Source of the DNA: Octopus vulgaris
Lineage: Eukaryota
DNA length: 64,000 bases
Direction: 5' to 3'
NCBI GenBank assembly: GCA_951406725.2
Contig: OX597816.1
Location: 66,960,001-67,024,000, forward strand
The notes beneath the pieces were generated by a model. That model worked only from the letters and a program-made list of their open reading frames with translations. It did no database searches and was not told the DNA's origin. The translations under genes and the position numbers were made by a program. Positions 5,716-64,000 of this stretch are shown in pieces; position 1 is the stretch's first letter, and each line of letters starts with the position of its first letter.

Positions 5716-6385
5716 TTTCAAGTTTTTGGCTCATGGTTATTAATTTCAGAAGAGGGGTTAAGTCGATTACATCGACCCCCAGTGCTCAGTTAGTGGTTAT
5801 TTTATCGACCCCGAAAGGAAGAAAGGCAAAGTTGACCTCGGCAGAGTTAGAACTTAGAACGCAAAGACGGACGAAATATTGCTAAGCATAATACTGGCTT
5901 CAAATTTTGGCACAAGGCTAGTAATTTCGGGAGAGGGGCCCAAGTTGATTACATCGACCCCAGTGTCCAACTGGTACTTATTTTATTGACCCCCAGAAGA
6001 ATGAAAGACAAAATCGACATCGGCAGAATTTGAACTCTGGACGTAAAGACGGAAGAAATGCTGGTAAGGATTTTCCCAGGCGTGCTGCTGGTTTCAAATT
6101 TTGGCACAAGGCCAACAATTTGGGTGAGGGTGGGGGGTAAGTCGAATACATCGATTACAGTACTTGACTGATCCTTATTTTATCGATCCCGAAAGGATGA
6201 AAGGCAAACTCGATCTCAGCGAATCAATCGTCTCTAACATAGACACAAAATCAGAAATTTAGAGGAAGTGGTTAGTTAGTTCAATCAACACCAGTTAGTG
6301 ACCGGTATTTTTTTTTATCGATTTGAGAAAGACAAAACCAAAGTTTATCTCGACGGAATCTGAACTCACTCTGTAAAGGGCAATA
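5716..6385 (-). mobile_element. Cluster of four head-to-tail, 5'-truncated SINE family A copies
   Basis: Four variants of ATCGACCCCGAAAGGATGAAAGGCAAAGTCGACCTCGG, each with a tail. Confidence 0.8.
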
Positions 6386-11390: not shown

Positions 11391-11630
11391 GACGGCAAGC
11401 TGGCAGAAACGTTAGCACGCCGGACGAAATGCTTAGCGGTATTTCGTCTGCTGTTACATTCTGAATTCAAATTCCGCTGAGGTCGACTTTGCCTTTCATC
11501 CTTTCGGGGTCGATAAATTAAGTACCAGTTACGCACTGGGGTCGATGTAATCGACTTAATCCGTTTGTCTGTCCTTGTTTGTCCCCTCTGTGTTTAGCCC
11601 CTTGTGGGCAATAAAGAAATAAGAAATAAG
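11391..11630 (+). mobile_element. SINE family A, full monomer with Tx1-like tail
   Basis: A-box TGGCAGAAACG, B-box-like ATTCAAATTCC, core GCCTTTCATCCTTTCGGGGTCGATAAATTAAGTACCAG (Meta-domain-like, from memory), tail ...GTGGGCAATAAAGAAATAAGAAATAAG. Confidence 0.9.
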
Positions 11631-12260: not shown

Positions 12261-12287
12261 ACTATGATTATTATTATTATTATTAAT

Positions 12288-12460
12288 ATGGCACAAGGCC
12301 AGCAATTGACTCTAGTGTTCAACTGGTACTTATTTCATCGATTCTGAAAAGATGAATGGCAAAGTCAACCTTGGTGAAATTTGAACTCAGAACGTAAAGA
12401 GAGACGTAATGCCGCCAAACATTTTACCCACCATGCAAACGATTCTGCTAGCTTGCCTCC
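12288..12460 (-). mobile_element. SINE family A, diverged copy
   Basis: Head and core motifs recognisable. Confidence 0.75.
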
Positions 12461-13545: not shown

Positions 13546-14787
13546 ACTAATGATAATTAGTCCTAGGTTATTTTAAATTTAGACCTGTGATGAAAGGCAC
13601 GTCAAACCGTGACCAGTCAGTTTTCATTTTTCTAGATGATATATCTAAGAGATTTGGTTGCTATTTCTAACATGTCGGATGACTGCATGAGTGGGTGGAA
13701 GGTTCTTTCTAGAACACCGAAACTAAATTTTCCAACTGCACCTCAAAATTTTCGGGTAATCTTGTGATATTGACAAAAATGGCTGACAATGAAATGAAAC
13801 TGAAAAGTACGAGTATGGTGTACCAAATTCTGAATGATTTGTCTGTAACTTGTTCGGGGAGGGTGATTTTCTTTCTTGTTAAAATCCCGAAGTTAATAGG
13901 ATAGTAACGTAGAATCCAGTAAATGAATGTCATAAATACATTTACTTTGTGAATATGATGCCTGTCGAACGCTTGTAAATACGACGCAAACAGATTATCA
14001 AAAGCTCCATACGTCACCCCTTATATATCTTTTGTCTTACACGATATACTCACAATATTGTTCATGTGCAATATTTCATAATTTCAACTTCATTTTAATA
14101 CCATGCTCACTGCCAATTACCATTTTTGTCAGAACAAAAAAAATCATTTAATTGTCGGCCATTTCATGTCTGTCGCTATTTCCATTTTGTTATTCATCTC
14201 TGTCTCCTCCCCTTTCAAATCCTCTTTTGCGCCTTTTCCTCCTCCTACTTCTTTTTTCCATCTACCAAGTTTCATTAGTTTCTCATTCGTTCTTCCACTT
14301 ATATTTTTTTTCCCCTTTTTTACTCATCTTCACTCGTCTTTGTTTTCGTTGTATTTTAATATCCTCTTTATCATCTTTTGTTATCCTCTTCTTCCCTTAT
14401 TCCTTTTCTGCCTTCTTCATCTCAGGTGTGTCTTAGTTATTTCACGAATGCAAGTTAACAGCATTGTTGCCAGAATAATTAATCTAACGAATTAGACATT
14501 CTCCAAGGACCGTATGAAGACTATACACTGATAACTGCCTCTATTATATAATAAACACTGATAACTACATCTATTATATATTATTATTTCACCTGTGAGT
14601 CGTTAGATACGGCAAGATTAATAAATAACCCCCAAATTATGCGCAATTAAGTTCAGTGTCACTAAGTTTGTTACCTTAAACCTGTATATGTTGTTACTAC
14701 TACTACTACTACTACTACTACTACGACGACGACGACGACGACTACTACTACTGCTGCTGCTGCTGCTAATAATAATAATGATAATAA

Positions 14788-14940
14788 TCCTTTCTACTAA
14801 AAGTACAAGGCCTGAAATTTTGGGGAAGGAGACTAGTCGATTACATCGACTCCAGTGCTTCACTGGTACTTAATTTATCGACCCCGAAAGAATGAAAAAC
14901 ATTTTCCCCGGCGTGCTAGCGATTCCGCCAGCTTCCCTCC
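14788..14940 (-). mobile_element. SINE family A, internally deleted, between trinucleotide arrays
   Basis: Head, core remnant and AGGCCTTGTACTTTTAGTAGAAAGG tail. Confidence 0.75.
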
Positions 14941-15817: not shown

Positions 15818-16088
15818 CAGTAGTAGTAGTAGTAGTAGTAGTTGTTGTTGTTTGGCTCGTGGACGGACCACTACTCCTGGAGAAATATGGCGAATGGTTT
15901 CCATCTGTGACCACTTGTCTTTCACTTCTAGACAGTACTAAATTATCCGAAGTGACCCGCCACTACCACACCTATTTTAAAACAGGGATATTTGACTACT
16001 ATATCTAGCGGGCCGAGCGACCACGTAGATGCCTTCAAGCTGCATGGTGTACACCTATAAAAATCATCAAGAGACACAACGTAAAAAT

Positions 16089-16495
16089 ATTCTTTTCTAC
16101 TCTAGGCACAAGGCCCGAAATTTTGGGGGAGGGGGCCAGTCAATTAGATCGATCCCAGTACGCAACTGGTACTTAATTTATCGATCCCGAAAAGGATGAA
16201 AAGCAAAATCGACCTCATCGGAATTTGAACTCAGAACGTAAAGACAGACGAAATACCTATTTCTATTTCTTTACTACCCACAAGGGGCTAAACACAGAGA
16301 GGACAAACAGGGACAGACAAACGGATTAAGTCGATTATCTCGACGCCAGTACGTAACTGGTACATAATTTATCGACCCCGAAAGGATGAAAGGCAAAGTC
16401 GACCTCGGCGGAATTTGAACTCAGAACGTAGCGACAGACGAAATACTGCTAAGCATTTCGCCCGGCGTGCTAACGTTTCTGCCAGCTAGCCGCTT
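16089..16495 (-). mobile_element. SINE family A dimer
   Basis: Monomer 1 with Tx1-like tail joined at GAAATA|GGTATTTCGTC to a truncated monomer 2 with a different tail. Confidence 0.9.
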
Positions 16496-21243: not shown

Positions 21244-22421
21244 TCGAAGCTGATTATTTACGACGTCTGTAACGACGCAGTAAAGAAATAATCACCTTCG
21301 ATCGCCCTTAGTATATCGATGCAGCTATGTCCTTTTTATCTTAAACGAACATGCACAAGGAAGAAATTCTAAGTACCAACAGACTGAATCAAAACCAATA
21401 AAAAATTGTTTCTAACAAAGTTTCAGTACAAAGCCTGAAATTTTGTGGGATGGTGTTAGTTGATTACTTCGACTCCAGTATAGAACAACCATTTTATTTT
21501 ATCTAGTCAGAGAGGATAAAAAGCGAAACTGACTTTGGCGAGATTTGAACTTGGAACATAAAGAGCCTGAAGGAATGTCGCATAGCAGTTAGTCCCGTGA
21601 TCTAACGATTCCGCTAATTTACCACACTATTCTACTGACTCTGCTAAGTCAAGGCTCACTGACTTTTGAATCAGGCACAGGGATCACAGTTGAGTTTTGT
21701 TTTGTTGGTATCGGGTGGGAGTGCAGCAGGGTTGCAGGGTAACAGTTGCGTGTGTCGATGCTAATTCTGGACTAATGATTAATTTTATCGAAACTCAGAA
21801 AAGAAAATGCAAAGAAGGCATCGTTGGGATTTGAACTCAGATTGTAAAAAGACAGAACCGAATATTGCAAAGAATTAAATAGGAAAGAAGAAGAAGAAGA
21901 AGAAGAAGAAGAAGAAGAAGAAGAAGAAGAAGAAGAAGAAAGAAAGAAACGGAGGAAAATGAAATGAAAGAGGAAATGAAGAAAAAGAAACATCTTGTCA
22001 ACTCACGGTATTTTCCTTCTTCCGGCCATATCCAAATTTTTCAAAGAATTTTCAGCAGATTGAAAAAGAAGATATTAATTCTTGTATTTGTACAAGATAA
22101 TGTGGTAAAAGTCCTATCGTTCTATGTTGACTGCAAAGTTTGGAAGCCTTGAGCCGTGTGTCGTTTCTTAAACGGTTTTACCGGGTTTATATACAGTACG
22201 TGTGATAGATATAAATAGATAGATACAGCTACGCACATATATATATACGTACAGACACTAACTTACTTACTTTCCTACCTACATACCTACCTACCTACAT
22301 CTATTACTCAATTAAATACTAGTCTCTCGCTGGCTAACTTCGCTGCTTTGTCAAAGTTGTGGGTGTGTAAAAGTTTTAACTTCGAGTGTATGTGTGACGG
22401 TGTATAGTTATCTATCTACAA

Positions 22422-29201: not shown

Positions 29202-29742
29202 TATATATATTTATAATTCTACCTTTACAGTGCTTCATTTCGCTGGAAAATAATATTATTGTAATAATATATATATATACACATATGTACGTATGTATGT
29301 ATATATATATATACATATGTACGTATGTATGTATGTATATATGCACATGCATACAAATAAGCATATATATATGTGTATGTGTGTGTGTATATATCTATAG
29401 ATAAATGCATGTGTGTATATATGTGTGTATCACTTATTTTAATGAGTATATTCTGATTTATTTTTCACAGGTCACTCCGTTAAAGCTATTTTTATATATT
29501 TATATCTTATCGCTCTGAAACTTGGAATTCTTTCCATTCATGAAGACCTTTGCTAAAATCGTACATGAAGAAATATTTTCGTTATATCGGCAAAATATTT
29601 AGTTTCGTCTCTATAAATAAAACCTCAACTGCCTAAGCTTTTGTGACCAACCCCAGATGATCACCAACGTAACACAAGACCTCATCAATATTTCAGTCAC
29701 TGAAGTACTGTTTATCTCCGTCTGGCCGGCCTGTACAGCATT

Positions 29743-30158
29743 TATTTCTTTATTACCCACAGGGGGCTAAACATAGAGGGGACAAACAAGGACAGACAAG
29801 TGGATTAAGTCGATTACATCGACCCCAGTGATTAACTGGTACTTATTTAATCGACCCCGAAAGGATGAAAGGTAAAGTCGATCTCGGCGGAATTTGAACT
29901 CAGAACGTAACGGCAGACAAAATACCTATTTCTTTATTACCCAGAAGGGGCTAAACACAGAGAGGACAAACAAGGACAGACATAGGTATTAAGTCGATTA
30001 TATCAACCCCAGTGCGTAACTGGTATTTAATTTATCGACCCCGAAAGGATGAAAGGCAAAGTGACCTCGGCGGAATTTGAACTCACAACGTACCGGCAAA
30101 CGAAATACGGCTACGCATTTCGCCCGGCGTGCAAACGATTCTGCCAGCTGGCCGCCTT
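29743..30158 (-). mobile_element. SINE family A dimer with 17-bp target-site duplication
   Basis: CCGGCCTGTACAGCATT at 29726-29742 and 30159-30175; both monomers end in the Tx1-like tail. Confidence 0.92.
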
Positions 30159-30899
30159 CCGGCCTGTACAGCATTGAGATGCCCGAATTAGTACCTCCAT
30201 CAGTGTTCTAATTTCTACGCATCAAACATGAGTCATTTCTCTTGTCCACCCCAGTGTCTCACATCGAACCACACACCAGGCCCTAATCCACCTCAAAACG
30301 GTGATCTCTGCAAAGTCCTTGCATACAATTCCCACCTCCACAGCTCTCCCTCCACACACTTGTAACAACTATGCAAACTTTTCCACCTCTCCCTCTCTCA
30401 TTTTTCTCTTTCCCTCTGTCACTCACTCACTCACTCTCATTCTTGCTTCCTCCATTCCTATCTCCTACGGCACAATCAACTCCATGATAACTACACGATG
30501 GGCCACCTTTGACACAAGAATCAGATCAGGCTTCACGGTCACACTGACCAATTTTGCTAGCATTATCTGCTTCCCTTTTTTCTTTACTAACACCTCCAAT
30601 TCTTCTACCGCTGTTAACACAGCACATACACCGAAAGAGAGCGTATTCTACCTGCTTATTTTGTTTTGGCCCTCCTACACAAATATTTTGCCATCCGCCT
30701 GTTGTAAGTTTCTTTTTTTTTATCCTGTCTCATTTGCACCACCTTTCGAATAATCTCTGCTAGCTACTTACTGGATTATTGGTTTGTAAATCTATGTAGA
30801 GGCCGAGAGAAGAGCTCTGCAGCAAGATAACACGTGTTCCAGCGACATGCTTTACTTTTTGCAGAATTCGCATATTTCATTTTGATTACTCCCCACCAT

Positions 30900-32760
30900 C
30901 TCTTAAAATTCAAATATGGCACCAATTACAAACTGAATTAATTCTTTCGATATCGGGAAAATATTTTTCTAATATCATTTCGTTCTTTTGTATGCCTGCA
31001 CAGTGAACTCCCTGGTGTGCTGCCTCTGTATCCCTATCTTTTCCACCTTTTCTCAGACAACTTCCACCACCACGTTCTCCTTGCCCTCCCAAGACCTTGC
31101 GTACCGAACTTCTGCTTTTTAGGTGGAAAATCCACACCTCTTCCGTCACTTTCCGCCGCATCCCAAATTTTCTTCCATTTCTCAGATGCAGAAGCCTCGT
31201 CTGCAATTTTCCGCCTTCCATTTGCATTCAATACAAATTGGAGGTCTTGTTTTGGCATCCCCGGGCTCCTTTATCATCATACCCAAGCACATTTTGCCCG
31301 CTTTCAATTCTTCAATCACCAGTTTCAATAGCAGCCGTAATTTCTCCAAACGGCCAAACAGAGCTACATCGGACAACATATTTAACACACCCAACCATGT
31401 CCAGTATTAAATATTCATCCTTTGTTTCATGCGTTCAACCCTTATAACTACTGCCTTGTACTCAACTCTTGATATTAACCCATACTGTCAGCACTACAGA
31501 TTTGCCTTTCCAGAAATCGATGTCCCATTAATCCGTTCGAGATTTCTGTTCGTTTCTCCTAGATCTTTACACCGTACTTTCAATCAGATCGATCCCGTAC
31601 TAACATTTCAGATTCCCTCTTCTGAAACATGTTGGATGTCTCCTCCAGTTATCTGAAACTGTTTTCTTTTCTTTTTCCTACCCCGGGAGCTCGCTCCTAA
31701 TCACCTTTGCCTGAAACTTCATCCCAATCTATGAAATTACCCCGCTAAAGTCTTATCAAACCTCCTCGTCCAAGTTTCACACAATTATCAAATAATCCAC
31801 GAAAACCTTCGTTGATGACATCATAACTCACTCCACAAATGGTAATCCTTCAATAGCAACTCAAAGCAAAATCTCCATCCCCATAGGGACCTATATCGAC
31901 AAGAACTGTCATTCCGTTGTATACAAGTTTGTCGAAAATCTCATTCTGAACTGCTCCAAGTAGTTCTGCATCATACTCTTAGTAAACTGCATGTAGCTAT
32001 GGAGAACCGGCCCACGTTCATTGACAGAGTTTTACAAATGGCATCGACACTCCCATGCGTTTCTTGCATCACTGAATAGTTTCCCACATTGTGTGAACGG
32101 ATCTATCACAAGTATGGTCTTCATGACAAAATCCATCGCAGTTCGTGCCAATACACTCACTAAGACATTCCGATCAATAGTGTGGAGGCGGCGAGCCTGG
32201 TAGAATCGTGAGCACGCCGGGAAAAAAGCTTACTGGCTTACTGTACTGGCTCTCATATCATTATTACTACTATAATTATTCCTACTGAGCATTTCTTTTG
32301 TCTCTAGATTCTGAGTTCAAATTCCACCGAGATTGTCTTTGCCTTTCATCCTTTCAGGGTTGATGAAATATGTACCAGATGAATACTGGGGTCGTTGTAA
32401 TCGACTTATCCACCAGCCATCCACCCCCATCAAAAATCCGCTGGCCTTGTGCCAAAATTTGAAACCAAATATTGGTCGGAACTGACTAATCAGTCTAGCA
32501 TCCTTTTCCTTTGGAATGCACACTCCTCTCGAAACACACCAACAAATTAGTAAAAATCGTTTCCCCGACAACACCTTGAGAATCTACCACAAACTCTTCC
32601 TTATCCGCGGACAATATTTAACAGACTTGCTCGATAGACCATTCTGGTCTGCAGTGCCGCCAGCGCGTACTTTCTGTGCCACGGCATCGACCTCACCCGT
32701 ATTGACTCACCTGAAATTCTGTTGGCCTTTCAAACCACGAACGTTTCTCTTCGCTTTTCA
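30900..32760 (-). mobile_element. Decayed HERO-like (RLE-type) LINE RT region, interrupted by a SINE
   Basis: Manual translation: KYCPRIRKSLW*ILKVL..GVCIPKEKDARLISQFRPI / VSVLARTAMDFV / MRFSTNLYTTE*Q / MKFQAKVIRS / WLGVLNMLSDVALFGRLEKLRL..IEELKAGK / GTQGLGRARRTWW; multiple stops and frameshifts. Confidence 0.65.
32185..32470 (+). mobile_element. SINE family A copy inserted in the HERO-like remnant
   Basis: Head GGCGGCGAGCCTGGTAGAATCG, core, tail CTGGCCTTGTGCCAAAATTTGAAACC. Confidence 0.8.
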
Positions 32761-34087: not shown

Positions 34088-34135
34088 GTGAATTGAAGAA
34101 ATGGAGCTGAACGCAGATTGAACAGAAATCGTTTT

Positions 34136-34227
34136 ATTTCATTCTACACGTGTTTCGAAAGGCACAATTTACCAAAATCCGATTGAATAATGGGACCATA
34201 TTGTGTCTTTCTCTTCAGGAAGAAAAT
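34136..34227 (-). ncRNA. Minimal hammerhead ribozyme motif, left arm copy
   Basis: Reverse complement of 35344-35435. Confidence 0.7.
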
Positions 34228-34811
34228 AGGAAATCCGTTGGAAAAAACAAAAACAGAACAGAGGCGGAGCAAAAACAAATCGAACTAGGCTCCTAAGAGC
34301 CCATGGCGAAACTGTTTATCAGTGTATGTTGAGAACCGGTGGCTGAAGAATTTAACGGGTCAGGCATCGGTCAATCATGTGGGTGAGAGTGTGTAGATGT
34401 TCTTTGTGACCGAGAATAAAGTTCTGACTATTTAAGGAATATTGGATGTTTTATAAGGGGCGAGAAAAAATCTACTTAGAGACGTGTGTGTGTATACTGT
34501 TCTATATATGTGTGTGTTGGCGTAGGGGTAGAAAACATTTTTTGTGTACGTGTGTGCGTTTGATCGTTCGGCTGTCAGTGGCTACTGCAGTGAGAACCGT
34601 TGGGTGGCAGAAAAAATATATATATATTATGTTTTATGTGTGTGTGTGTTCATCTAAGCCTGCCTTGTCAAGGAAACCCCCGTTGTGAAAAAACCAAGCC
34701 CCGTTTATCTTACAGGAGTAATTCCCCTTGCAGTGGTTAATCGTAGATATCTTAAAGGCTATTTCAGAATTTGTTACCAAGGGCTATGGGTGCCGGTATT
34801 ATTTATAAACG

Positions 34812-35105: not shown

Positions 35106-35343
35106 TCTTGAGGATTATAAAACATCCAATATTCCTTAAATAGTCAGAACTTTATTCTCGGTCACAAAGAACATCTACACACTCTCACCCACATGATTGA
35201 CCGATGCCTGACCCGTTAAATTCTTCAGCCACCGGTTCTCAACATACACTGATAAACAGTTTCGCCATGGGCTCTTAGGAGCCTAGTTCGATTTGTTTTT
35301 GCTCCGCCTCTGTTCTGTTTTTGTTTTTTCCAACGGATTTCCT

Positions 35344-35435
35344 ATTTTCTTCCTGAAGAGAAAGACACAATATGGTCCCATTATTCAATCGGATTTTGGT
35401 AAATTGTGCCTTTCGAAACACGTGTAGAATGAAAT
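35344..35435 (+). ncRNA. Minimal hammerhead ribozyme motif, right arm copy
   Basis: CUGAAGA at 35353-35359; stem II GAAAGACACAAT/ATTGTGCCTTTC; GAAA at 35415-35418; palindromic stem III ACACGUGU; GUA triplet; stem I UUUCUUC/GAA(U)GAAA. Confidence 0.75.
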
Positions 35436-35643
35436 AAAACGATTTCTGTTCAATCTGCGTTCAGCTCCATTTCTTCAATTCACCAATAATATTTTAATTT
35501 CAATTATCCGCACCAACGCACGGTTGCAACACCATATGGTTGTACCTCCAACCGTGCTGTTTACTGCTGTGATTTTTGCTACTAAGGTATCGGTTAAACT
35601 TTTGATTAATCTACTACAAGATTATTCATCTTTCTATTTCACA

Positions 35644-38540: not shown

Positions 38541-38932
38541 CTTTATTCTTTTATTTGTTTCAGTCATTTGACTGCGGCCATGCTGGAGCACCGCCTTTAG
38601 TTGAACAAATCGACCCCAGGACTTATTCTTTGTAAGCCTAGTACTTATACTATCGATCCCTTTTGCCGAACCGCTAAGTGACGGAGACATAAACACACCA
38701 GCATCGGTTGTCAAGCGATGTTGTGGGGACAAACACAGACACACAAACACACACATATATATATATATGCAACGGGCTTCTTTCAGTTTCCGTCTACCAA
38801 ATCTACTCACGGCTTTGGTCGGCCCGAGGATATAGTAGAAGAGACACTCACCCAATGTGCCACGCAGTGGGACTGAACCCGGAACCATGTGGTTGGTAAG
38901 CAAGCTCCTTACCACACAGCCACTCCTACGCC
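38541..38932 (-). mobile_element. SINE family B, full-length reference copy
   Basis: A-box TGGCTGTGTGG, B-box GGTTCAGTCCC, CORE-like segment, internal (TA)n(TG)n, 3' ...ATGACTGAAACAAATAAAAGAATAAAG. Confidence 0.9.
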
Positions 38933-38958: not shown

Positions 38959-39770
38959 TCAAAGTCGACCTCGGCGAAATTTGAACTCAAAAGCGTAAAG
39001 ACAGACGAAATAGAGTTAAGCACATCAGCCAGAGCGCTAACGTTTCTGCCAGCACACCGTCTTGTCCAGCATCTTTTTTTTTATTCATTTACATTTTAGG
39101 ATTTTATTATTAAGTATGAAAAAGTAAAGCGGTGAGTTGGTAGAATCGTTAGCATGTCGAGCAAAATGCTTAGCGGCGTTTCGTCCATCTTTACGATCTG
39201 AGTTCAAATACCACCGAGGTTGACTTTGCCTTTCATCCTTTCGGGGGTCAATAAAATAAGTATCCGCGGAGTACTGGAGTCGATGCAATCGAATTAACCC
39301 TGCCCCCACCCCAAATTTCAGGCCTTGTGCCTATTGTAGAAAGGATTATTAAGTATGGAAAAGGCGGCGAGATAGCAGAATCGTTAGCAGTAAACACGGA
39401 TGAAATGCTTTGCGGCATTTCATCCGCGTTTACATTTCTGAGTTCAAATTCCGCCGAGGTCGACTTTACCTTTTATCCTTTCGGCGTCGATGAAATACGT
39501 ACCAGATGAGCACTGGGGTCGATGTAATCGCCTTACCCCTTACTCCGAAATTGCTGGCCTTGTTCTAAAATTTGAAACCATTACTAAGTATAAAAAGGTC
39601 GGCTGATCAGTAAAAACGGTAAAGCATCAGATAATATGCCTTGTGGTATTTACATCCTTTTATGTTCTGAGAGAAAATTCTGTCAAGGTCGATTTTGCCT
39701 TTCATCTTGCTAAGGTCGATAAAATAAGTGCCAGGGAAGTGTGGGGATTGTTTCAATCGACTACACTTCT
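38959..39770. mobile_element. Cluster of SINE family A copies: one partial on -, three on +
   Basis: Heads at ~39128 and ~39363; repeated core; two different tails. Confidence 0.85.
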
Positions 39771-41171: not shown

Positions 41172-42075
<904 letters not shown>

Positions 42076-48321: not shown

Positions 48322-48555
48322 TTTTTATTTCTTTATTGCCCACAGTGGGTAAACATAGAAGGGACAAACAAGGAGAGACAAAGGGATTAAGTCGATTACT
48401 TCGACCCCAGTGCGTAACTGGTACTTAATTTATTGACCCCGAAAGGATGAAAGGCAAAGTCGACCTTGGCGGAATTATAACTCAGAACGCAGCGCCAAAC
48501 GAAATACTACTAAGCATTTCGCCTGGCGTGCTAACGATTCTGCCAGATCGCCACC
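48322..48555 (-). mobile_element. SINE family A monomer with Tx1-like tail
   Basis: Head, core and TTTGTCCCTTCTATGTTTACCCACTGTGGGCAATAAAG tail. Confidence 0.9.
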
Positions 48556-48732
48556 TTTGTCACCATTAATAAGACAATGGCAGACGGGAATATTTAGATG
48601 CAAACCATTAGATTATAAGATCAAATAGAGTCGGAGTCACCTTTATCTTTCATATTTCTATAGTCAACAAAATATATAAGGTTAAATCGATCCTGCTTTC
48701 CCGAAATACTTATAGCTTTATTCCAATGATGT

Positions 48733-54935: not shown

Positions 54936-55694
54936 TGAAAATTAAGAGCTAAAGTAATAATTAATAGTGTGGTTATAAACGACAACCTATTAACAAATTT
55001 TATATCTCTGCTTCTTCTCAGCGTTAACCAATGCTTATTGGATGATGAAATCCAATAACTCGCGATTTCTCATTCTTGACGTCAACGTTTCATAACAAGG
55101 ACCCCTTGCTAGTGAAAAAAATACACCACCAAACGGAAACTTACTAATTTTAAATTTTCGACCAATGATAGTGACAAAAAGAAAAAAAGAAAAAGAAAAA
55201 AACACATTAACAGATGTAAAGTTACTTATTTTGCACCCTGTACCAAAATTACGCCGAGGTCGACTTTACCTTTCATCCTCTCCGAGTCGCTAATAAAGTA
55301 CAACCCAAGGCTATGAAATAATTGAACTGTAAGAACGTCGGCCCGGTTGCCTTCCAGTATTTAATTCAATTCTTTGCGTACTAAATTCATAGCCAACAAT
55401 GACATACTTGGGTAGTAGAATTAACACGCCATTCCGTTTAATACCACCTCTGGCACTTTGGGTAGTTTCACGTGAATCCACTCGGATGCAAGTATCCGAT
55501 CTAGATTTCCAGTTTGATAATAGCTTCCTCCTCCCTTCCCGACATTCTTAGAAGCCTTTATAGGATCAAGGGTACTGTCTGCCATCTTGAATTTTTTTAG
55601 ATGAAAAACATTCAAACGAATTCATCGTGTACATCTTTGAACAGATTAATGACGGATGCTTTTTCTCATTGCAAGTCAATTGTGCAGTATCTTT

Positions 55695-55905
55695 TATCTT
55701 TTACTTGTTTCAGTCATTAGACCACGGCCATGCTGAGGCACCGCCTTGAAGAATTTTTAGTCGATTGAATCGACCTCTGTATTTTTTTTTTAAATCTGGT
55801 ACTTATTCTATCGGTCTCTCTTTGCCGAACGGCAAAGTACTCCGGCAGGGGCCTGAGACAAGCACAGACAGAAATACACACACACACACGTACGTGTCTG
55901 TGTAT
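55695..55905 (-). mobile_element. SINE family B, 3' half, separated from its 5' half by the Tx1 LINE
   Basis: Colinear with 38541-38760. Confidence 0.8.
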
Positions 55906-55940
<35 letters not shown>

Positions 55941-56240
55941 CTTTCTTTTATTAGCCACACAGGGCTGAATACAGAGGGGACAAATACAAATGCAGAGCTT
56001 TTCTTTTCGAGGGTGGAAAAAAATAAAAATGTAAGATTGCGATCAAAAGGGATCGAGAGGAGGAAAAAAAAGGAAAAAAAGAAAATCGTGTATCACAGAA
56101 ATAATGGTGTAAACATTGATATAACAAGATTGGGTTCATCCGTGGGAAGAAAAGCCTACAGAAAAGACCACGGGAACCCCAGTCAGGGAGGAAATAAACA
56201 CATGAGGTCAAAAATGCTCTCTTTCTTTCTTTTTTACGAT

Positions 56241-59200
56241 CTACAGGATCATGCTCAAAATGGTTTCGTTACTAGCACGCACCATCTTTGCAACATTCAC
56301 CCATCTTTTATTGAATCTTTCGCGAGACAAAACTTCCCTCTCCATTCTCACCTTCCTTTTCAAGTGGTACTTGAAAAAGTTGATGAGCGAATGGCCAGAG
56401 AGGTAAGTGTTTGTCTCTAATCCTTTCGCTCGAGTCCACCACACACATTCTTTCACCATGGCCACCAGTACGATGAAAACTGCCTTGCCTTCCCGGTTGA
56501 GGGAAGGGGGCGGAGCAATTCTCACGATAGACTCGGCCGATAGGCGGATTCGTCCCACACGTGACAGCAGCCGTTCGGCATAAGCCCACAGGTCGGAAAT
56601 GGTTGGACATTGCACGAGTGCGTGCAGAACGGTTTCGTCGCTCTGACCGCATCTCGGGCAAGTCGGTCCAGTGTGTCTGGAACCGTGTCTGTAGAGCTTA
56701 TCCCGAACAGGTAATGCTTCTCGATAGCACTGCCAGGCCAGGGATCTTTGGTGATTGTTCATAGGTCCCGGCCCGAAAGTTGTCCTGAACAGGCGGGTCA
56801 GGTGTTCCTCGTCGACGCCCAGACTCTGCCCGAGTTCGTCGTCGCACCTCCCCTCCACTAATCCTCTATAGAATGCCTTTGTTGTGATGGAGTCGCACAA
56901 GTTCGATCCCGGACGGCAGAGTTGCTTGAGAGCAACGCGACACTCACGGTGCCATTCGCCTAGCCTCGGTCTCTGCTTGATCCATGACTGTAGTTCGTCC
57001 AAGGAGACGAGCTGCGGGAAAGCGCGCCGCACAAAAGGCGACCACCCCTGTTCACCGTTGTCTATGAAGCGCCGGAGATGTCGCAGTCTCAGCGCATGTC
57101 TGCGCATCATCAACCACGGCATGCCCAGCCCTCCATTTAGCGGGTGTTGGCAGCAAATGGATCGCCTGACCATCGGAACGTTTCCCTTCCACAAGAAGCG
57201 GAAGAGTATGCGTTCCAGTTTGGTGATGGTAGGGTCGGGACAAGGCACGACGGTCAGACGGTACTCGATGACGGATGCGATGTACGCGTTCGCCACCTCC
57301 GCCCGACCTTTTAGGGATAGCTTTCTCTCAGTCCATTTCTGGGTGAGAGTAGCCACCCTAGTCGTTATCTCGCCCCAGTTCTTCTCCATTTGGAGGTCCG
57401 GACCGAACCAGACCCCGAGCAATTTAACCGGTCCGTCCGTCCAGCGTCCCACGATGGAGACGCTGTTGGACGGCATGGGCTTGCTTCTCCAGGTGCCGAG
57501 CCGCAAGCCCACTGACTTTTCCCGGTTAATTTTTGCTCCCGTTACCGCTTCGTATTCTTTCAGTGTCTCGCCGACCAGCTCGATGTGCTCGTAGCTCGAC
57601 ACTATGACGGTGACGTCATCCGCGTATGCAGACACGCTCCTCCCGCATCCCAGCTCTCGTGGGATGCCCCTCAGCGTCGCCAGTTTCCGCAGTAGTGGCT
57701 CAAGAGTCAGTACATACAGCAGCGATGAGAGGGGGCATCCTTGACGAACCGAACGCATGATGTTAAAAGGTCTGGATAGATGACCATTTACGCGAACTAC
57801 TGAGCGGATGCCGCTGTATAAGGCAGCGATCCAACTGCGGAAAACTGGACCGAAACCAGCCGCTTTGAGGACAGCCTCCAAGTAGTGATGGTCTACCCTA
57901 TCGAAGGCTTTTGATTGATCCAAATTGATCAGCGCCCCACCCATGCCAGGATTTTTAACTACCCTGTCTATGATGTAGCGCATCAGATGGAGGTTGTCAT
58001 GAATACTTCTACCCGGCACGGCGCATGTTTGCGCCTTGTCGATTAGTTTCTTGATGACAAGCGCCAACCTCTCGGCTAACACCTTGGCCAAAATTTTCAA
58101 ATCTGCGTTGAGCAGAGTGATGGGCCTGAAATTATCTATGACGTCCCCCTTGTTTGGGTCTTTCTTGATCAGTGTCACTGCTCCTCGCTTTACAAAAGCA
58201 GGAATACTCCCGTTCTGCTGCCAGTTGCAGTAGACAGCTGCCAAGACGCCTCCAAACAAGTCTGGCATATGAAAATAAAATTCGTAGGGCAGACCATCCA
58301 AGCCTGGTGACTTGTCTCTCGCGCAGCCTACCATCGCATCCTGTACGTCCGCAGCTGTGATAGGCTTTTCACAAGACTCCACCTCCCTTGCTGAGAGTCG
58401 TGGCAAGGCATGCAGGTAGGCACTAAAGTCCACTCTGCTTTCTGACTCACCACTTGTCCCAAACAGTTGGGTGAAGTGTTGTTGAAAAACCCCACACATC
58501 CTTTTAGGCTCGAGTAATTCGCGCCCCTGTTCATCTATAAGAGACTTGATGGTGGCTCTGTTGCCTCGTTGCGTCTCCACCACTCGGGCCTCTTGGGCGG
58601 CTCCAACTCCTTCGTTCCTCAGAGCACGCATCCTAGCTCTGACAACGCATCCCTCGTGTTTGGCGTTGAGGTGTTGGTCGAGGGCCAATCTCGCCGCCAG
58701 TACGTTGGACGCGATGCCAGTTCTAAGTGCCTCTTCTAAAACCTTAACTAATTCTCCCTCTACTCTATTTCGGTCTAATGCTAGGGCTCTACTGTATCTG
58801 ACTGATTCTGCTTTAATCGCTTTTTTTAGGGAATACCACCATCTGTTGTTGATGATGGTACCCGTCAAAGCTCTCTTAACTAATGTGCTGATCCGGTCCC
58901 TGTAAACCTGTCGTGCTGTAAAAGACGCGTTCAGTTTCCAGTAACCAGGACCCTGCCTATGTGTCTTATCTAAGTCAAGTGTACAAGTCACAAACTTGTG
59001 ATCTGTGTAACTGACTATATGAAATTGTGGACAACCTACACTATTTTTATCTATTGTCCTACAGAATACTCTATCTAAGTATGATCTGGACGACCCGATG
59101 CGGTTACTCCATGTCCACATTGGCACATTCGGGTGGTCCAGTCGGTACCTGTCAGACAGTTGGAAACGTCTGAGCAGGTCTTTGAGGCATTTGCATCCCC

Positions 59201-59678
59201 TTCTATTGCTATCTCTGCCCACGTAGTCTAGATGCGTGTCCAGGGTGGCATTCCAATCCCCCACTAAAAGTAAAGGACGAGACGTTCCCATGAAAGACTC
59301 TAGACGTCGAAAGAAATCTGGTCGGCCTGTTAAGGACGGAGCATAAACTGCTATCAGTCGAAAAGCACACTCATTGCTGCCATCGACATCCAAAACGACC
59401 AGCCTACCCTCCGGGTCTAGGAAATTTGCTCTTACTTTGAGATCCAGACTCTTCCGGATAAGCACCGCGGTGCCACCTCCGCCCATTCTCGGTAGACACG
59501 GAGAAAAATAAATGTTGAAATGTGTACCGAAAATGTGCTGGAGTGCCCGCAAGCTGTGGAGTCTGGTCTCACTGATGGCTATGATATTCAGATTTAGTGA
59601 CTTGATGTCATTTAACAGGTAGCCTTGTTTCCAAGGCGACCCCAAGCCACGTACATTTATACTACCTATTCTGAGCAT
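56241..59678 (-). CDS. LINE ORF2: AP endonuclease, reverse transcriptase and C-terminal zinc finger (1145 aa from the first ATG)
   Basis: Uninterrupted. APE motifs NVRGL, ISET, VYAP, GDWN, LDRVF, TDH; Tx1-type GPGYWKLN; RT motifs KSPGLDG, FRPITLLN, DQSKAFD, RQGCPLS, YADD; CPRC-x8-H-x4-C. Confidence 0.95.
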   Translation of the reverse strand: MLRIGSINVRGLGSPWKQGYLLNDIKSLNLNIIAISETRLHSLRALQHIFGTHFNIYFSPCLPRMGGGGTAVLIRKSLDLKVRANFLDPEGRLVVLDVDGSNECAFRLIAVYAPSLTGRPDFFRRLESFMGTSRPLLLVGDWNATLDTHLDYVGRDSNRRGCKCLKDLLRRFQLSDRYRLDHPNVPMWTWSNRIGSSRSYLDRVFCRTIDKNSVGCPQFHIVSYTDHKFVTCTLDLDKTHRQGPGYWKLNASFTARQVYRDRISTLVKRALTGTIINNRWWYSLKKAIKAESVRYSRALALDRNRVEGELVKVLEEALRTGIASNVLAARLALDQHLNAKHEGCVVRARMRALRNEGVGAAQEARVVETQRGNRATIKSLIDEQGRELLEPKRMCGVFQQHFTQLFGTSGESESRVDFSAYLHALPRLSAREVESCEKPITAADVQDAMVGCARDKSPGLDGLPYEFYFHMPDLFGGVLAAVYCNWQQNGSIPAFVKRGAVTLIKKDPNKGDVIDNFRPITLLNADLKILAKVLAERLALVIKKLIDKAQTCAVPGRSIHDNLHLMRYIIDRVVKNPGMGGALINLDQSKAFDRVDHHYLEAVLKAAGFGPVFRSWIAALYSGIRSVVRVNGHLSRPFNIMRSVRQGCPLSSLLYVLTLEPLLRKLATLRGIPRELGCGRSVSAYADDVTVIVSSYEHIELVGETLKEYEAVTGAKINREKSVGLRLGTWRSKPMPSNSVSIVGRWTDGPVKLLGVWFGPDLQMEKNWGEITTRVATLTQKWTERKLSLKGRAEVANAYIASVIEYRLTVVPCPDPTITKLERILFRFLWKGNVPMVRRSICCQHPLNGGLGMPWLMMRRHALRLRHLRRFIDNGEQGWSPFVRRAFPQLVSLDELQSWIKQRPRLGEWHRECRVALKQLCRPGSNLCDSITTKAFYRGLVEGRCDDELGQSLGVDEEHLTRLFRTTFGPGPMNNHQRSLAWQCYREALPVRDKLYRHGSRHTGPTCPRCGQSDETVLHALVQCPTISDLWAYAERLLSRVGRIRLSAESIVRIAPPPSLNREGKAVFIVLVAMVKECVWWTRAKGLETNTYLSGHSLINFFKYHLKRKVRMEREVLSRERFNKRWVNVAKMVRASNETILSMIL

Positions 59679-59720
59679 GTTCCGATAAAAGTGCAAAAAA
59701 GGAAAAGGAGAGAGAAAAGG

Positions 59721-61858
59721 TTACTTGTTTTCCGAAAGTTCTTTGTCTTTCACCTCACGGTCTTCTTCTATGAGGCTTTTATACAGTTTTTTTGATGAGT
59801 ACTTTTGAAATCTCCCTACTGCATCAGGGTAAAGAGATTTCAGGGTGCTGTATGTGTTCTGTGTCACGTGTATTATTTTAATGTGTTGTGGTGGTGTTGT
59901 GTGTGGGTGGTTACTTGTTTTTATGTCGTTTTCAGTAATGTTAGTGTTTGACCTAATGTGTTCCATTAGGTCGTGGTTGTTTGTGTTTATGGCTGTCAAC
60001 ATTTTTGGGGGGTTTGATGATGGTGTGTTTGTGTTGATGTGTGTGTTTTCTGTGGATGTTTTTGTTTCGGGAGTGGTGTATCTTCCCGCTTTGTTTGTTA
60101 TTTTTTCTTTTCTTTTTTTTCCCCTTTTTCTTCTCCCCCCTGTGGCTATTTGCCAATCTTCCGTGTCTTCTTCGTCTAATGACAGATCAGACGAATCGGA
60201 GTCTGGAAGAGGGAAAGTATTGGGGTCTATTGTCGACTGTGTTGGTTTTGTTGTTGGTGTTGGTTGGTGAGCGTTTGGTTGTGGTGTGTGCGGTTTTGGA
60301 TGTGGGGTTTGGGTATTTTGTGTTTGAGTGATTGTGGGTATTGTTGTGTTGTTTAGGGTCTCAATTTTGTGGGGATTTGGAGTTGTAATTGTTTCTTCAT
60401 TTATGCTGGGTGTCTTTTTGGCAGATGTCCTTGGTTTGGGAGTTGGTATATTCTTGGTTGTTGTTGTTGGTGATGCTGCTTCTGTTCTTGGTGCTGCAGT
60501 TGGTGTGGTTGTTTGTTTGGTGAGGTTTGTTCCTGCAAAAAGTGGTGTGGGTAGTAGACCTTGTTTATTTGTTTTTGTTTCCGGCTGCTGTTGTTTTCTT
60601 GCGGCAGATTTGCAGTCTTTTTTGAGATGTTGCTCACTGCCGCATATGTAGCAACGTGGTCTTCTGCCATCGACGACCACATATAACTTGTGGTCGTCTG
60701 ATACACATATCTGGGTGGGTATTTTTTTTATATCTTCATGATGTATATGTAGAAGAAATTCTATTTTCTTTCCCACCCAGTTTTTATGCTCTGTGACTGT
60801 GGTTTCCAAAATAGTATAATTCGCCATTTTTATGCATAAAGCCTTTACAAGCCATAGACTATTGGCTATTTTGGGGACATTGTTTAGAGTGATCTTAGTC
60901 ACTTTCTGTCCCCGATAGCTTGGTGTAAGTTGGAGTTCATCTGAGTGAAGAGTTAGCGTTGAGAAATGTCTAGCTAACTCTTCGGTGTAGAAAACGACTT
61001 GTATGTGGGCAAATTTGTTCCACCAGGTTACATATTCTTTGTGATCCCAGATGGGTTTCAGGCACTTCTCTATTTTGCCTGTGTTGGCCTTCTCTGGGAT
61101 TTTTGTTTTTTGTTAACTATTTTATAAATGATTGTTCGTCTTTTTTCATTTTCCAAAATATCTTCTGGTATGTTAATTTTTACGATACCTTCTGATTCTG
61201 TTATTTTGATGTTCGTGTCCTGTAATTGTTGAGCCGTAAAGTATATTGTTGTTTTTTTTTCTTTAATCGCCTCAGCGAAATTTGTTGTTGTTTTGCTATT
61301 GTTGTTGCTTGTGGTGATGTTGTTGGCTGCAGTTTGTAAAATTGGTGTGTTAGGTTCGATCGTGCAAGTAGGAAGGGGTGGAAAATTGCCTGCGTACTTT
61401 AGTCCTGCACTAGGGCAAAATTCGACATTTCGTTTGCTTGTCGTCGTTATTTTTTCACTTGTTGGTGATGGAGTGAGCAGTGGTTGAAGGGAGTTGTTGT
61501 TGTCGTCGTTGTTGTTGTTGTTATTGTCGTTCTTGGTGACGGCTGTGGTGTTGGTAGTATTTGTAGCATTGACGGCACGGTCTTTGGTGGCGGTGATGGT
61601 GATGTTGGTGTTGTTATTGGTGGCAATATCTTTAGTAGGGATAGCAGTTTTAGTAGCAGATTCTGCCATGGTGTTGGTGGTGGTGGTGGACTCACTGATG
61701 GTGTTGACGGTGCTTGGCCTTGCGACCTTTGTTTTGTATTTGTTGCTGTTGGTGGTGGTGGAGTTGTCAGGTTCGGCGTATGCTAACAGAGCATCCTGTT
61801 TTTCTGTTTCTCCGTCACGCTTGACTTGCAACTCAGCCTCGTGGTGGTCAGTGGCCAT
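59721..61858 (-). CDS. LINE ORF1, gag-like with CCHC zinc knuckle, one frameshift at ~61106-61111 (~712 aa if repaired)
   Basis: ATG (MATDHH) at 61858; adding one A to the A6 run joins the 304-aa and 393-aa ORFs through an open linker; CYICGSEQHLKKDC knuckle; T/P-rich and basic C-terminus. Confidence 0.85.
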
Positions 61859-62080
61859 TTTGGAAATAAAATGGCTAAATGAAACCACGAAGGCTATGAG
61901 AATTTTTCTTTTAAATTTTGCCCACAAGGGGCAAAATTTTGTGTCGATATTTATCAAAGGTTTACAGTGGATGTTGTTGTACAACTTTTAAGCAAAAAAT
62001 GTTTGTCAATATACACTTTTAAATAGTCAAAATAAATGATTACCTTCGGAGCCGAAGCGACATCACATCCGTCAGTCAAG

Positions 62081-62125
<45 letters not shown>

Positions 62126-62282
62126 CACATAACGGACTTCTTTAATTTTCCGTCTACCAAATCCACTCAAGGCTTTGGTCGGCTCGAGGTTATAGTAAAA
62201 GATACTTGCCCAAAGGCTCACGCAGCGGGGCTGAACACGGAACCACGTGATTAGGAAGCAAGTTTCTTACCACGCAGCCACT
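62126..62282 (-). mobile_element. SINE family B, 5' half, separated from its 3' half by the Tx1 LINE
   Basis: Colinear with 38770-38925. Confidence 0.8.
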
Positions 62283-63254
62283 ATCTGTAGATAGAATCGT
62301 TTCTGATAATTTTATGATAGTCTTAATGTTAATTTAGATTTTCTCTAAGGTTCTGTGATCTCTCCAGATCACTGCTCACTCTACATAAATAACCTTGAAA
62401 TACAGATATCATTTCAACATGCATCTAACTCTAAAACAACTTTCTCTACCTCTCAAACATACGCAAATAAGCAATATCATTAACTCTTACGCTTAACAGC
62501 TCGTTAGCCAACTCAGCATTGAAAGCTAACGCATCGTTAATTAACAATTTCTAATAATGGCACAAGGCCAATAATTTCGCGGGAAAAGTTGGTTAATTAA
62601 ATCGACTCCGGTAATTTGTCAATAATTTATTTTACTAACTCCGAAGAGGCAAAAGATAATGATGATCTCGGTCGGGAGTTGTAAATAAATATCACAATGT
62701 ATTTTCCTCGACGCTGTAACTATTGTGTCAATCCACCACCGTCAATGCATCCTTTATTAATAAGTGCTTTGAGATAAGCAGGATCAAATGGTCAAAAGGC
62801 TTTGTGGTATTTAATCAAATTTTTTACTTATCTTTTCAGATCTAATCTCAGTCGGTTCAGATTTGCTAATCATCCTTCTAGGATCCATAAAATCAGCAAG
62901 TGTCTAGTACTGAGGGCAATTTAACCGAATGTTACCTCGCCTAAAATGTCAGCCGATTATAAGGATTGTGTAATTGTACAGAGGCTCTCACGTTGGCTTA
63001 TTCCGTTGTTGTCAAAATTAGGTAAGCACTGACTGAGCAGAACTATTAATAAACGCGTTTCAGTCGTAACCGTCCCGACTCTTACATCCAAACAATGTAT
63101 ATAATACTTTATTAAGCAATCTGAATTTGTGATTCGAGAGAGATTTGCTGCTATTTTAGCAAGTTTAGCAGCCATGATCGACACCCTAATGTTGTTTAAA
63201 CTCTCTTTTAGTAAATGAATGATTAAAAGTATTCCACTCATAACAATCAATTTT

Positions 63255-63563
63255 TATTTTTATTTATGCGCCCTTTTCAAGCCTAGCCAGGCTCATGGGC
63301 CCGGTTTCTGTGGCGTATGTGTACCCCCCAGCTGGACGGGACGCCAGTCCATCGCAGCGTTACTCAAGAAACAGGAAGAGATAGTGAGAGAAAGTTGGGG
63401 CGAAAGAGTACAACAGGAGTCGCCCCCCCCCCCCCTGCCGGAGCCTCGTGGAGCTTTAGGTGTTTCCGCTCAATAAACACATACAACGCCCGATCTGGGA
63501 ATCGAAACCGCGATCCTCCGACCGCGAGTCCGCTGCCCTAACCACTCGGTCATTGCGCCTCCA
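63255..63563 (-). mobile_element. SINE family C
   Basis: Closely similar to 18590-18903. Confidence 0.9.
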
Positions 63564-64000
63564 CCATAACAACCAAGTCTTTCCTTACTTCGGACAAGGT
63601 ATCTTAAAGTACATTATTCTTCCTCCTTTTAAGACAGTGGGATATGTTATATGAGGGATATTTGGCTATTTTAATTAGGCTAAGAAACCAGGTAGAAATT
63701 CCTACGTTAACTCTTATAGTGCATAGTTGTTTACAGCAATATAATGAAACTGCACAAGGGATTTATTGTACAACTGAGTTGAATAAGTTAGCGGAAGTTG
63801 AATATTTTAACTATACGACACTGCACAGAGATCGTTTAGGAAATCCATAAACATTTTATCAATTAGCTCGATGCATTAACGATTCGACCAGGTTGTTCAT
63901 CTCCTCCATTTACATAACAGGACTCAAATCATTCTCTTTAGAATAACAAGTGCAAAGTATCTAACTACCAACAACTTGGGTGTGGTAATGTAGTAACATG

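What the first reader, a model, noticed from the sequence alone, without database searches (positions are those of the whole stretch)
55941..55990. The 3' end of the Tx1 LINE matches the tail of SINE family A: a candidate Tx1-driven SINE
Seen: the LINE end TTTGTCCCCTCTGTATTCAGCCCTGTGTGGCTAATAAA (55947-55984, minus) aligns without gaps to the SINE tail TTTGTCCCCTCTGTGTTTAGCCCCTTGTGGGCAATAAA (11578-11615) at 32/38. Both are followed by GAAA and the element end, and both can form a small stem-loop just before AATAAA (AGCC/GGCT and GCCC/GGGC). The same tail occurs at ~16270, ~29750, ~29935 and ~48330. Established: SINEs often borrow the 3' end of the LINE that mobilises them, usually L2, CR1 or RTE; Tx1-partnered SINEs are much rarer. 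Inference: this family or a close relative mobilises SINE A by recognising its 3' end.
Basis: partly seen in the sequence, partly recalled or inferred. Interest (0 to 1): 0.8.

Follow-up and report, generated by a model that had tools for sequence, protein, structure and literature searches.

The report
Octopus SINE borrows L1/Tx1 retrotransposon tails
A short jumping element in this likely octopus genome ends in the same 38 letters as a full-length L1/Tx1-type retrotransposon, and its older versions end like related retrotransposons, so it likely hitch-hikes on their copying enzyme by mimicking their tail, a partnership my searches found on record only for plant and algal members of this group.

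Summary
Observation confirmed: 32/38 ungapped; shuffles reach at most 26. The LINE (62080-55941, minus) is full length, L1-group, with an intact ORF2; its closest named relatives are from the octopod Argonauta. It is multi-copy in three coded organisms. In one, 17 contigs join the tail to a variant LINE 3' UTR, so the tail is a family feature, not a one-copy fusion.

New here: SINE A has one body and three exchangeable tails. The youngest (T1) matches this LINE. The older two (T2/T3) match the conserved 3' end of the sister LINE lineage (41% ORF2 identity), which keeps GGCCTHGTGCC in 39 of 39 loci. All SINE tails can form a short GC stem around a CUYGU-type loop.

Best reading (0.7): LINE-derived tails recruit ORF2p of this L1/Tx1-like clade; for T1 the partner may be a sister subfamily. 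Against: the T1 hairpin is not unusually stable and shows no covariation; 0 of 4 T1 insertions share the LINE's (ATCT)n site; Tx1 membership and other LINE clades are untested; there is no assay. The scan noted one similar single-copy case in a protist (e1-7200422).

The parts
55941..62080 (-). Full-length L1-group (Tx1-like) LINE, about 6.14 kb
   Evidence: ORFs; Pfam; PDB; boundaries at (ATCT)n arrays
55947..55984 (-). LINE 3' terminal 38-mer shared with SINE A tail T1; AGCC[CUGUGU]GGCU stem-loop before AAUAAA
55941..56240 (-). LINE 3' UTR; only its last ~40-50 nt resemble SINE A
56241..59678 (-). Intact ORF2, 1145 aa: APE endonuclease, RT, zf-RVT
59721..61112 (-). ORF1 3' part (stop-to-stop frame) with a CCHC knuckle just below Pfam cut-off; homologous to ORF1 of the sister LINEs
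   Evidence: E 0.0017, 18.8 bits vs cut-off 20.8; 26% id, E 3e-13
61070..61858 (-). ORF1 5' part, in a different frame from the 3' part (frameshift near A-runs around 61110; mutation or assembly error)
61913..61939 (-). 11-bp hairpin in the LINE 5' UTR, GCCC[CUUGU]GGGC core; a 15-mer identical to the SINE T1 stem-loop
   Evidence: E 0.013; z -3.1
55907..55938 (.). (ATCT)8 array at the LINE 3' flank (target and/or target-site duplication)
62081..62124 (.). (ATCT)11 array at the LINE 5' flank
62132..62282 (-). 5' half of the host SINE (family B) split by the LINE
   Evidence: 81% to the intact copy at 38.9 kb
55690..55880 (-). 3' half of the host SINE (family B)
   Evidence: 74%
11391..11621 (+). 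SINE A monomer A1: tRNA-like head with A/B-box-like motifs (box consensus recalled; ARAGORN finds no tRNA), body, T1 tail 11578-11615
16085..16494 (-). SINE A dimer A2: full T1 unit followed by a headless unit with T2 tail
29726..30175 (-). SINE A dimer A3 (T1+T1) flanked by a 17-bp target-site duplication (30159-30175 and 29726-29742)
48326..48556 (-). SINE A monomer A4 with T1 tail
39128..39584 (+). Older SINE A units in tandem with T2 (39293-39345) and T3 (39533-39580) tails, matching sister-LINE ends
5893..6223 (-). Older SINE A units with T3 tails
14785..14937 (-). Older SINE A (internally deleted) with T2 tail, in (ATT)n
21410..21624 (-). Old SINE A with T2-like tail
12285..12459 (-). 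Old SINE A with shortened T3 tail
32288..32465 (+). Old SINE A with T3 tail
62550..62684 (-). Degenerate SINE A with T3 tail

Best explanation
SINE A is a tRNA-like SINE whose youngest tail (T1) matches the 3' end of this multi-copy L1/Tx1-like LINE and whose older tails (T2/T3) match the 3' end of a sister LINE lineage, so it likely took each tail from a LINE of this clade and is likely copied by that LINE's ORF2 protein, which would recognise a small stem-loop in the tail. Shown: one body with three tails; T1 homology at the LINE terminus; the tail in other LINE copies; T2/T3 homology to sister-LINE termini; T1 units being the youngest. Inferred: Pol III transcription from the head; ORF2p binding of a GC stem with a CUYGU-type loop (by analogy with L2 LINEs, PMC4176376); target-primed reverse transcription; tail replacement by template switching. 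The T1 partner is this family or, at least as likely, a sister subfamily with a closer tail.
For: 32/38 at both termini; shuffles give at most 26. T1 profile vs the LINE: E 6e-7, at the terminus. No SINE A body sequence in the LINE, so the homology is confined to the T1-specific module. The LINE is multi-copy: 7905, 6902 and 3668 contigs laid in organisms A, B and C, and the tail bins are covered in all 4 runs. In run X6, 17 contigs continue from the tail into a variant LINE UTR, and the same 55993 variant is in 77, 97 and 66 contigs of the three DNA-type runs. Sister clade: the window/Argonauta group and the array LINEs form one clade (SH 1.0; UFBoot 100). Sister-LINE ends carry GGCCTYGTGCC in 35 of 39 loci and GGCCTAGTGCC in the other 4, against 0 hits in 84 distant LINE loci (424 kb). 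The motif survives where UTRs are only about 40-60% alike (L112). The same 11-mer occurs 6 times in the window, all in SINE A tails, against 0.04 expected. A profile of 8 sister-LINE ends puts 10 of its 12 window hits on SINE A T2/T3 tails; the top two score 21.8 and 19.5 bits against a best null of 14.1 in 21 nulls. Reverse search: 40 of 43 hits at those LINE ends. Ages: T1 bodies are 90% alike pairwise, T2 73%, T3 75%, and the LINE family spans <90 to 99+% identity bands. The A3 dimer has a 17-bp TSD.
Against: The T1/LINE stem-loop is no more stable than shuffles (z +0.05 to -1.3), and 2 of 5 T1 tails fold otherwise at minimum energy. No pair shows a two-sided change in the 6-sequence alignment. 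The motif stem in sister LINEs is invariant, so it gives no covariation evidence. The LINE's own loop is CUGUGU, not CUUGU, and several tail positions differ from the T1 copies. The LINE sits in (ATCT)n (0.18% of the window), but 0 of 4 T1 insertions do; only 1 of 4 shows a clear TSD. Reverse-search hits are individually weak (E 0.03-2.8) and non-independent tandem copies, and 3 nulls-level hits aside, several subfamilies (L082, L085, L093, L109) were not hit at all. The sister LINEs come from another record, not this genome; SINE T2/T3 lack their terminal hairpin; the sister profile does not hit T1 or this LINE's end. 1086 loose-end rows and 63 variant rows were not shown, so alternative LINE ends cannot be excluded, and SINE contigs may add to the depth over the tail. 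SINE B also holds a TTTGTCCCC stretch (21/24 to the start of T1), so part of the motif is not exclusive. LINEs of other clades could not be compared.
Confidence: 0.7

Rival explanations
1. The tails are LINE-derived relics of template switching, but recognition is relaxed (A-rich end or polyadenylation signal), so any L1-group or other ORF2p could move SINE A; the conserved motif serves the LINE's own 3'-end processing.
For: The motif lies just before AAUAAA in both LINE lineages. The T1 hairpin is weak, with no covariation. Target sites differ. L1-clade LINEs are mostly relaxed (PMC3472496).
Against: Three different tails, each matching this one clade, were retained by successive SINE waves. 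T1 copies end in GAAATA, without a poly(A) run.
Confidence: 0.15
2. Reverse direction: an ancestor of this LINE family captured the end of a SINE A T1 copy (for example as a polyadenylation signal) and spread with it.
For: SINE A is abundant (26 head/body hits in 64 kb). The T1 module is about 62 nt, and only 38-50 nt align to the LINE. The T1 motif is absent from sister LINEs.
Against: There is no SINE body remnant in the LINE. T1 is the youngest SINE tail. The parallel T2/T3 motif is conserved across deeply diverged LINE subfamilies, which fits LINE-to-SINE transfer.
Confidence: 0.1
3. The match is chance or convergence in pyrimidine/GU-rich sequence before a polyadenylation signal, or a SINE fragment fused to this one LINE copy.
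For: High background, up to 27/38 elsewhere in the LINE; TTTGTCCCC also occurs in SINE B.
Against: 0 of 2000 and 0 of 500 shuffles reach 32; end-to-end register; variant LINE copies carry the tail.
Confidence: 0.05

Closest known systems
Maize/sorghum ZmSINE2, ZmSINE3 with LINE1-1_ZM, and Chlamydomonas SINEX-3_CR with L1-1_CR (Ohshima 2012, PMC3472496, part 1 of 3 read; Ohshima 2013, PMC3747384, section 1.4 and passages of Table 1 read)
   Same: tRNA SINE sharing a short 3' end (about 50-80 nt) with an L1-clade LINE, with a proposed hairpin; read as stringent recognition.
   Different: Those are plant and algal, and were the only 3 L1-tail SINEs among 58 pairs. This case is animal, has several tails from two sister lineages, and shows no compensatory changes for T1.
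Crocodilian SINEU with Tx1-Mar (Kojima 2015, PMC4494074, passages read)
   Same: SINE proposed to be moved by Tx1-type LINEs in an animal.
   Different: SINEU has snRNA heads and poly(A) ends, the link rests on a shared target, and no LINE sharing the SINEU-1 3' end was found. Here the link is a shared tail and the targets do not visibly match.
Stringent L2 pairs, UnaL2 and ZfL2-1/ZfL2-2 (Hayashi et al. 2014, PMC4176376, passages read)
   Same: Model for the mechanism: ORF2p binds a 3' stem-loop, loop sequence specific and stem exchangeable.
   Different: L2 clade and experimentally proven; here L1 group and untested.
Tail-swapping mollusc SINE superfamilies (Nishihara 2016, PMC4824008; Matetovici 2016, PMC4758252; Martelossi 2024, PMC11481361; passages read)
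   Same: One SINE body with exchangeable LINE-derived tails; homology 35-61 bp at 72-95% identity in Martelossi 2024, the range seen here.
   Different: Reported partners are CR1, CR1-Zenon, L2 and Nimb; 'Tx1' does not occur in the main text of two of them and once, in another context, in the third.
Octopus SINEs OK/OR1/OR2 (Ohshima and Okada 1994; seen only as a citation; the name OK is recalled)
   Same: tRNA-derived octopus SINEs; SINE A is probably one of them or a relative (inference).
   Different: Sequences could not be compared (SINEBase supplement unavailable), so identity is untested.

Membership tests
L1 group of non-LTR retrotransposons | ORF2 with APE endonuclease, RT and C-terminal zinc motif | tested here: met
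   Pfam PF03372, PF00078, PF13966, all above cut-off
L1 group of non-LTR retrotransposons | ORF2 closer to L1 than to other non-LTR clades | tested here: met
   Human L1 ORF2p E 4e-61 over residues 4-857, R2 E 2e-19. Only L1 and R2 ORF2 references appeared; CR1/L2/RTE were not compared.
Tx1 clade | RT groups with named Tx1 elements (RTClass1-type phylogeny) | not testable with these tools
   No named Tx1 sequence was returned; trees lack such a reference
Tx1 clade | Type I ORF1 with RRM/zf-CCHC, not Transposase_22 (PMC5203782, passages) | tested here: inconclusive
   zf-CCHC E 0.0017, below cut-off; no Transposase_22 and no RRM hit at E 0.1; consistent but not diagnostic
Tx1 clade | Target preference, e.g. 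microsatellites (common, not universal; PMC4494074) | tested here: inconclusive
   One insertion, in (ATCT)n on both sides; the flank was skipped as repeat
tRNA-derived SINE | tRNA-related head with Pol III boxes | tested here: inconclusive
   A/B-box-like motifs seen by eye (consensus recalled); ARAGORN 0 genes; no tRNA among the 150 Rfam rows shown of 192
tRNA-derived SINE | Short, interspersed, multi-copy, non-coding, with TSD | tested here: met
   26 head/body profile hits; 17-bp TSD at A3, none clear at A1, A2, A4
Stringent SINE/LINE pair | Shared 3' terminal sequence | tested here: met
   T1; T2/T3, partial and cross-genome
Stringent SINE/LINE pair | Tail is a family-wide feature of the LINE | tested here: met
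   (17 contigs with tail plus variant UTR; output truncated, fraction of copies unknown)
Stringent SINE/LINE pair | Conserved stem-loop with compensatory changes | tested here: inconclusive
   T1/LINE: can form, no covariation, z not significant. Sister LINE ends: z -3.6 to -4.1 in 3 of 4 folded
Stringent SINE/LINE pair | Tail required for mobilisation by that ORF2p | not testable with these tools
   needs a retrotransposition or binding assay

The most novel reading that the evidence does not exclude
A cephalopod clade of L1/Tx1-like LINEs recognises its RNA stringently through a conserved CUYGU-loop hairpin whose stem has flipped between lineages (GGC..GCC versus GCCC..GGGC). One of the most abundant octopus SINEs has survived by repeatedly swapping tails between lineages of this clade. 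This would be an animal L1-group case of sequence-specific tail recognition, and the same hairpin in the LINE's 5' UTR may be a second protein-binding site.
Probability: 0.4. Interest if true: 0.8.

Novelty: new variant of a known kind. Interest (0 to 1): 0.62.

Why it matters
Whether L1-group LINEs were ancestrally stringent and later relaxed to poly(A) recognition is an open question (Ohshima 2012; Hayashi 2014), and the evidence I found is from plants and algae only. An animal L1/Tx1-like family with an intact ORF2, a 38-nt candidate signal and natural tail variants makes this directly testable by loop and stem swaps. It would also name the likely engine behind part of the octopus SINE expansion (SINEs 11.6% of the O. 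vulgaris genome; 13 recently active L1-Tx1 families; PMC13282606, parts 1-2 of 3 read). Caveat: Repbase, Dfam, SINEBase and subscription papers could not be seen and may already note the pairing.

Tried and rejected
No whole genome is held, so there was no genome-wide consensus, TSD, target or age analysis and no comparison with other LINE clades. Viral-contig scans found nothing usable, nor did the plasmid search. The metagenome scan returned only distant LINEs (80 loci kept of 93), used as controls. A search of genome G001 for SINE A gave 7 chance-level hits. Rfam found only microsatellite-driven miRNA hits in the window and nothing in 6 array loci, so no snRNA or tRNA target separates the tandem units. 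No other L1-like protein remnants lie in the window (0 of 110 tblastn hits outside the LINE). Plain BLAST missed the T2/T3 match; it was seen by eye and then tested with profiles. My structure string for the second hairpin was out of register with the MAFFT alignment and gave 36% pairing and no covariation. A per-sequence count shows 7-9 pairs in 10 of 11 distinct segments, L112 failing in that register; this had no shuffle control. ESM Atlas gave only generic RT/EN clusters. Ten literature searches surfaced no octopus SINE/L1-Tx1 pairing. Albertin 2015 was not held and the SINEBase supplement was unavailable. The rival 'one-copy fusion' was rejected. No structure prediction was run, as it would not decide the question.

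Full report
Observation. The 38-mer at 55984-55947 (minus) matches 11578-11615 at 32/38 without gaps, and the tails at 29786, 29970 and 16307 at 32, 31 and 31. The copy at 48368 needs a 1-nt gap. Shuffles reach at most 26/38 (500 shuffles against the UTR) and 25/38 (2000 shuffles, end against end), while the real LINE without its end gives 26-27. A profile of the five T1 units hits the LINE terminus at E 6e-7 and finds no SINE body in the LINE. The match is real and terminal.

The LINE. It runs from 62080 to 55941, between (ATCT)11 and (ATCT)8, inside the middle microsatellite of an unrelated SINE, family B. ORF2 is intact: 1145 aa with endonuclease, RT and zf-RVT. It is far closer to human L1 ORF2p (E 4e-61) than to R2 (E 2e-19). 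ORF1 is split by a frameshift and has a weak CCHC knuckle. The closest named proteins are from Argonauta hians, at 55-59%, so the host is likely an octopod. 'Tx1' is plausible from the ORF1 type and the microsatellite site, but no named Tx1 reference was available, so I call it L1/Tx1-like.

Is the tail a family feature? No genome is held, so I laid contigs of four public runs on 55880-56700 at 85% likeness. 7905, 6902, 3668 and 82 contigs were laid; in X1 they spread over the 99+, 95-99, 90-95 and <90% bands as 1097, 2150, 3136 and 1522. The tail bins are covered in all four runs. In X6 (organism B), 17 contigs leave the window sequence at 55985 and continue in letters that read as the LINE UTR with a 1-nt deletion and substitutions. 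The linked variant at 55993 stands in 77, 97 and 66 contigs of X1, X6 and X14. Other, different LINE copies therefore carry the tail. Limits: 1086 loose-end rows were not shown, depth is not copy number, SINE contigs may add to the tail bins, and the ATCT flank was skipped.

SINE A has three tails. A head/body profile finds 26 hits in the window; two of these are partial matches outside the family, one inside SINE B. My motif rule labelled 5 as T1, 4 as T2, 6 as T3 and left 11 unlabelled (truncated, degenerate or split). Bodies with T1 are 90% alike pairwise, T2 73% and T3 75% (4 and 5 units), so T1 marks the youngest wave. T1 also occurs inside dimers: A2 is T1 then T2, and A3 is T1 then T1 with a 17-bp TSD around the whole.

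The older tails match the sister LINE lineage. A scan of genome contigs returned 40 loci of tandem LINE arrays at 41-44% ORF2 identity, from one record labelled as a bacterial MAG. These form one clade with the window/Argonauta group (SH 1.0, 109 RT segments with the arrays thinned to subfamily representatives; UFBoot 100, 33 of 33 sequences; midpoint rooted). Their units end in a C-run, an A-run, GGCCTYGTGCC, a second hairpin and AATAAA, after which the subfamilies diverge. 35 of 39 loci with a complete ORF2 match have the exact 11-mer and the other 4 have GGCCTAGTGCC; 0 of 84 distant LINE loci have it. It persists in L112, whose UTR is only about 40-60% like the others. The same 11-mer occurs 6 times in the window, always in SINE A tails, against 0.04 expected. 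A profile of 8 such ends puts 10 of 12 window hits on T2/T3 tails; the top two (21.8, 19.5 bits) exceed all 21 nulls, whose best is 14.1, and the other hits do not. In reverse, 40 of 43 hits in 897 kb fall on these LINE ends, but each is weak (E 0.03-2.8), the copies are not independent, and some subfamilies were missed. The arrays are from another source, so the true T2/T3 partners in this genome remain to be found.

Structure. T1 can fold GCCC[CUUGU]GGGC; T2/T3 and the sister LINEs fold GGC[CUYGU]GCC; this LINE's end folds AGCC[CUGUGU]GGCU. A fixed loop on exchangeable stems is what L2 ORF2p reads (PMC4176376, passages). The evidence for structure is mixed. Three of four sister-LINE ends fold far better than shuffles (z -3.6 to -4.1). 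The window's tails do not (z +1.0 to -1.3), and no two-sided change appears in the T1/LINE alignment or in the invariant motif stem. The LINE's 5' UTR holds an 11-bp hairpin with a 15-mer identical to the T1 stem-loop. No such hairpin was found elsewhere in 8 array loci, and it is unexplained.

Mechanism. Most likely (0.7), SINE A RNA is made by Pol III (inferred), and its LINE-derived tail is bound by ORF2p of this clade and copied by target-primed reverse transcription (inferred). Tails were likely replaced by template switching as different lineages became active, T1 last. The T1 partner may be a sister subfamily: the T1 copies share differences from this LINE, and 0 of 4 T1 insertions lie in (ATCT)n. 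Rivals: relic tails with relaxed recognition (0.15), LINE capture of a SINE end (0.1), and chance or one-copy fusion (0.05).

Comparison and novelty. Tail sharing is textbook, but Ohshima found only 3 L1-tail SINEs among 58 pairs, all in plants or algae (I saw only passages of Table 1). The Tx1-linked SINEU was tied to its LINE by target, with no shared end found for SINEU-1. Mollusc surveys name CR1, CR1-Zenon, L2 and Nimb as partners. Ten searches of the held library found no octopus SINE/L1-Tx1 pair. Repbase, Dfam, the SINEBase supplement, Albertin 2015 and Ohshima and Okada 1994 could not be read and may bear on both the SINE's name and novelty. The scan's earlier notes include one similar, single-copy protist case, which I did not test. 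Verdict: a real, well-supported candidate SINE/LINE partnership of a rare type, a new variant of a known kind, interest 0.62.

Noticed in passing
L081-L118, L121, L124 (contigs CAXXMW0100000xx): A record labelled 'MAG: uncultured Arenicella sp.' in the bacterial genome collection holds many contigs of head-to-tail arrays of intact eukaryotic LINEs (period about 6.4 kb, neighbours 99.8% alike in L082, several subfamilies, no Rfam target between units). Evidently host contamination; the arrays themselves (telomere-like or self-targeting) are unexplained.
   Followed up: partly
window 61913-61939 (-): 11-bp hairpin in the LINE 5' UTR with the same GCCC[CUUGU]GGGC core as the SINE T1 tail (15-mer identical, 0 expected by chance).
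   Followed up: partly
window 55907-55938, 62081-62124 and 3795-3830: All three (ATCT)>=5 arrays of the window lie just behind SINE B heads, and the LINE sits in one of them: possible microsatellite or SINE-B target preference.
   Followed up: partly
window 16085-16494 and 29743-30157 (-): Both SINE A dimers start their second unit at the same point of the head (GGTATTT..), directly after the T1 end; either a dimer master element or site-specific insertion into other SINE A copies.
   Followed up: no
window about 38725-38748 (-) vs 11563-11586: SINE B's segment after its microsatellite resembles the start of the T1 tail (21/24), and its 3' part weakly matches the SINE A body (55846-55759, E 0.0015): shared modules between the two SINE families.
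   Followed up: no
window 13258-13546, 18587-18902, 25840-26154, 63266-63564: A third tRNA-like SINE family (about 89% alike among three copies) with a different tail; the 18.6 kb copy has an apparent 14-bp target-site duplication.
   Followed up: no
window 30232-31447: A non-repetitive, purine-rich stretch with several open frames next to SINE A3; no hit to the L1-like proteins fetched; possibly a remnant of another element.
   Followed up: no
window 34087-34456 vs 35115-35484: A 370-bp perfect inverted repeat (also 41433-41616 vs 41788-41972 at 95%); possibly MITE-like elements or assembly artefacts.
   Followed up: no
L119, L120, L122, L123: Other bacterial MAG records also hold eukaryotic LINE ORF2 sequences, likely contamination.
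   Followed up: no
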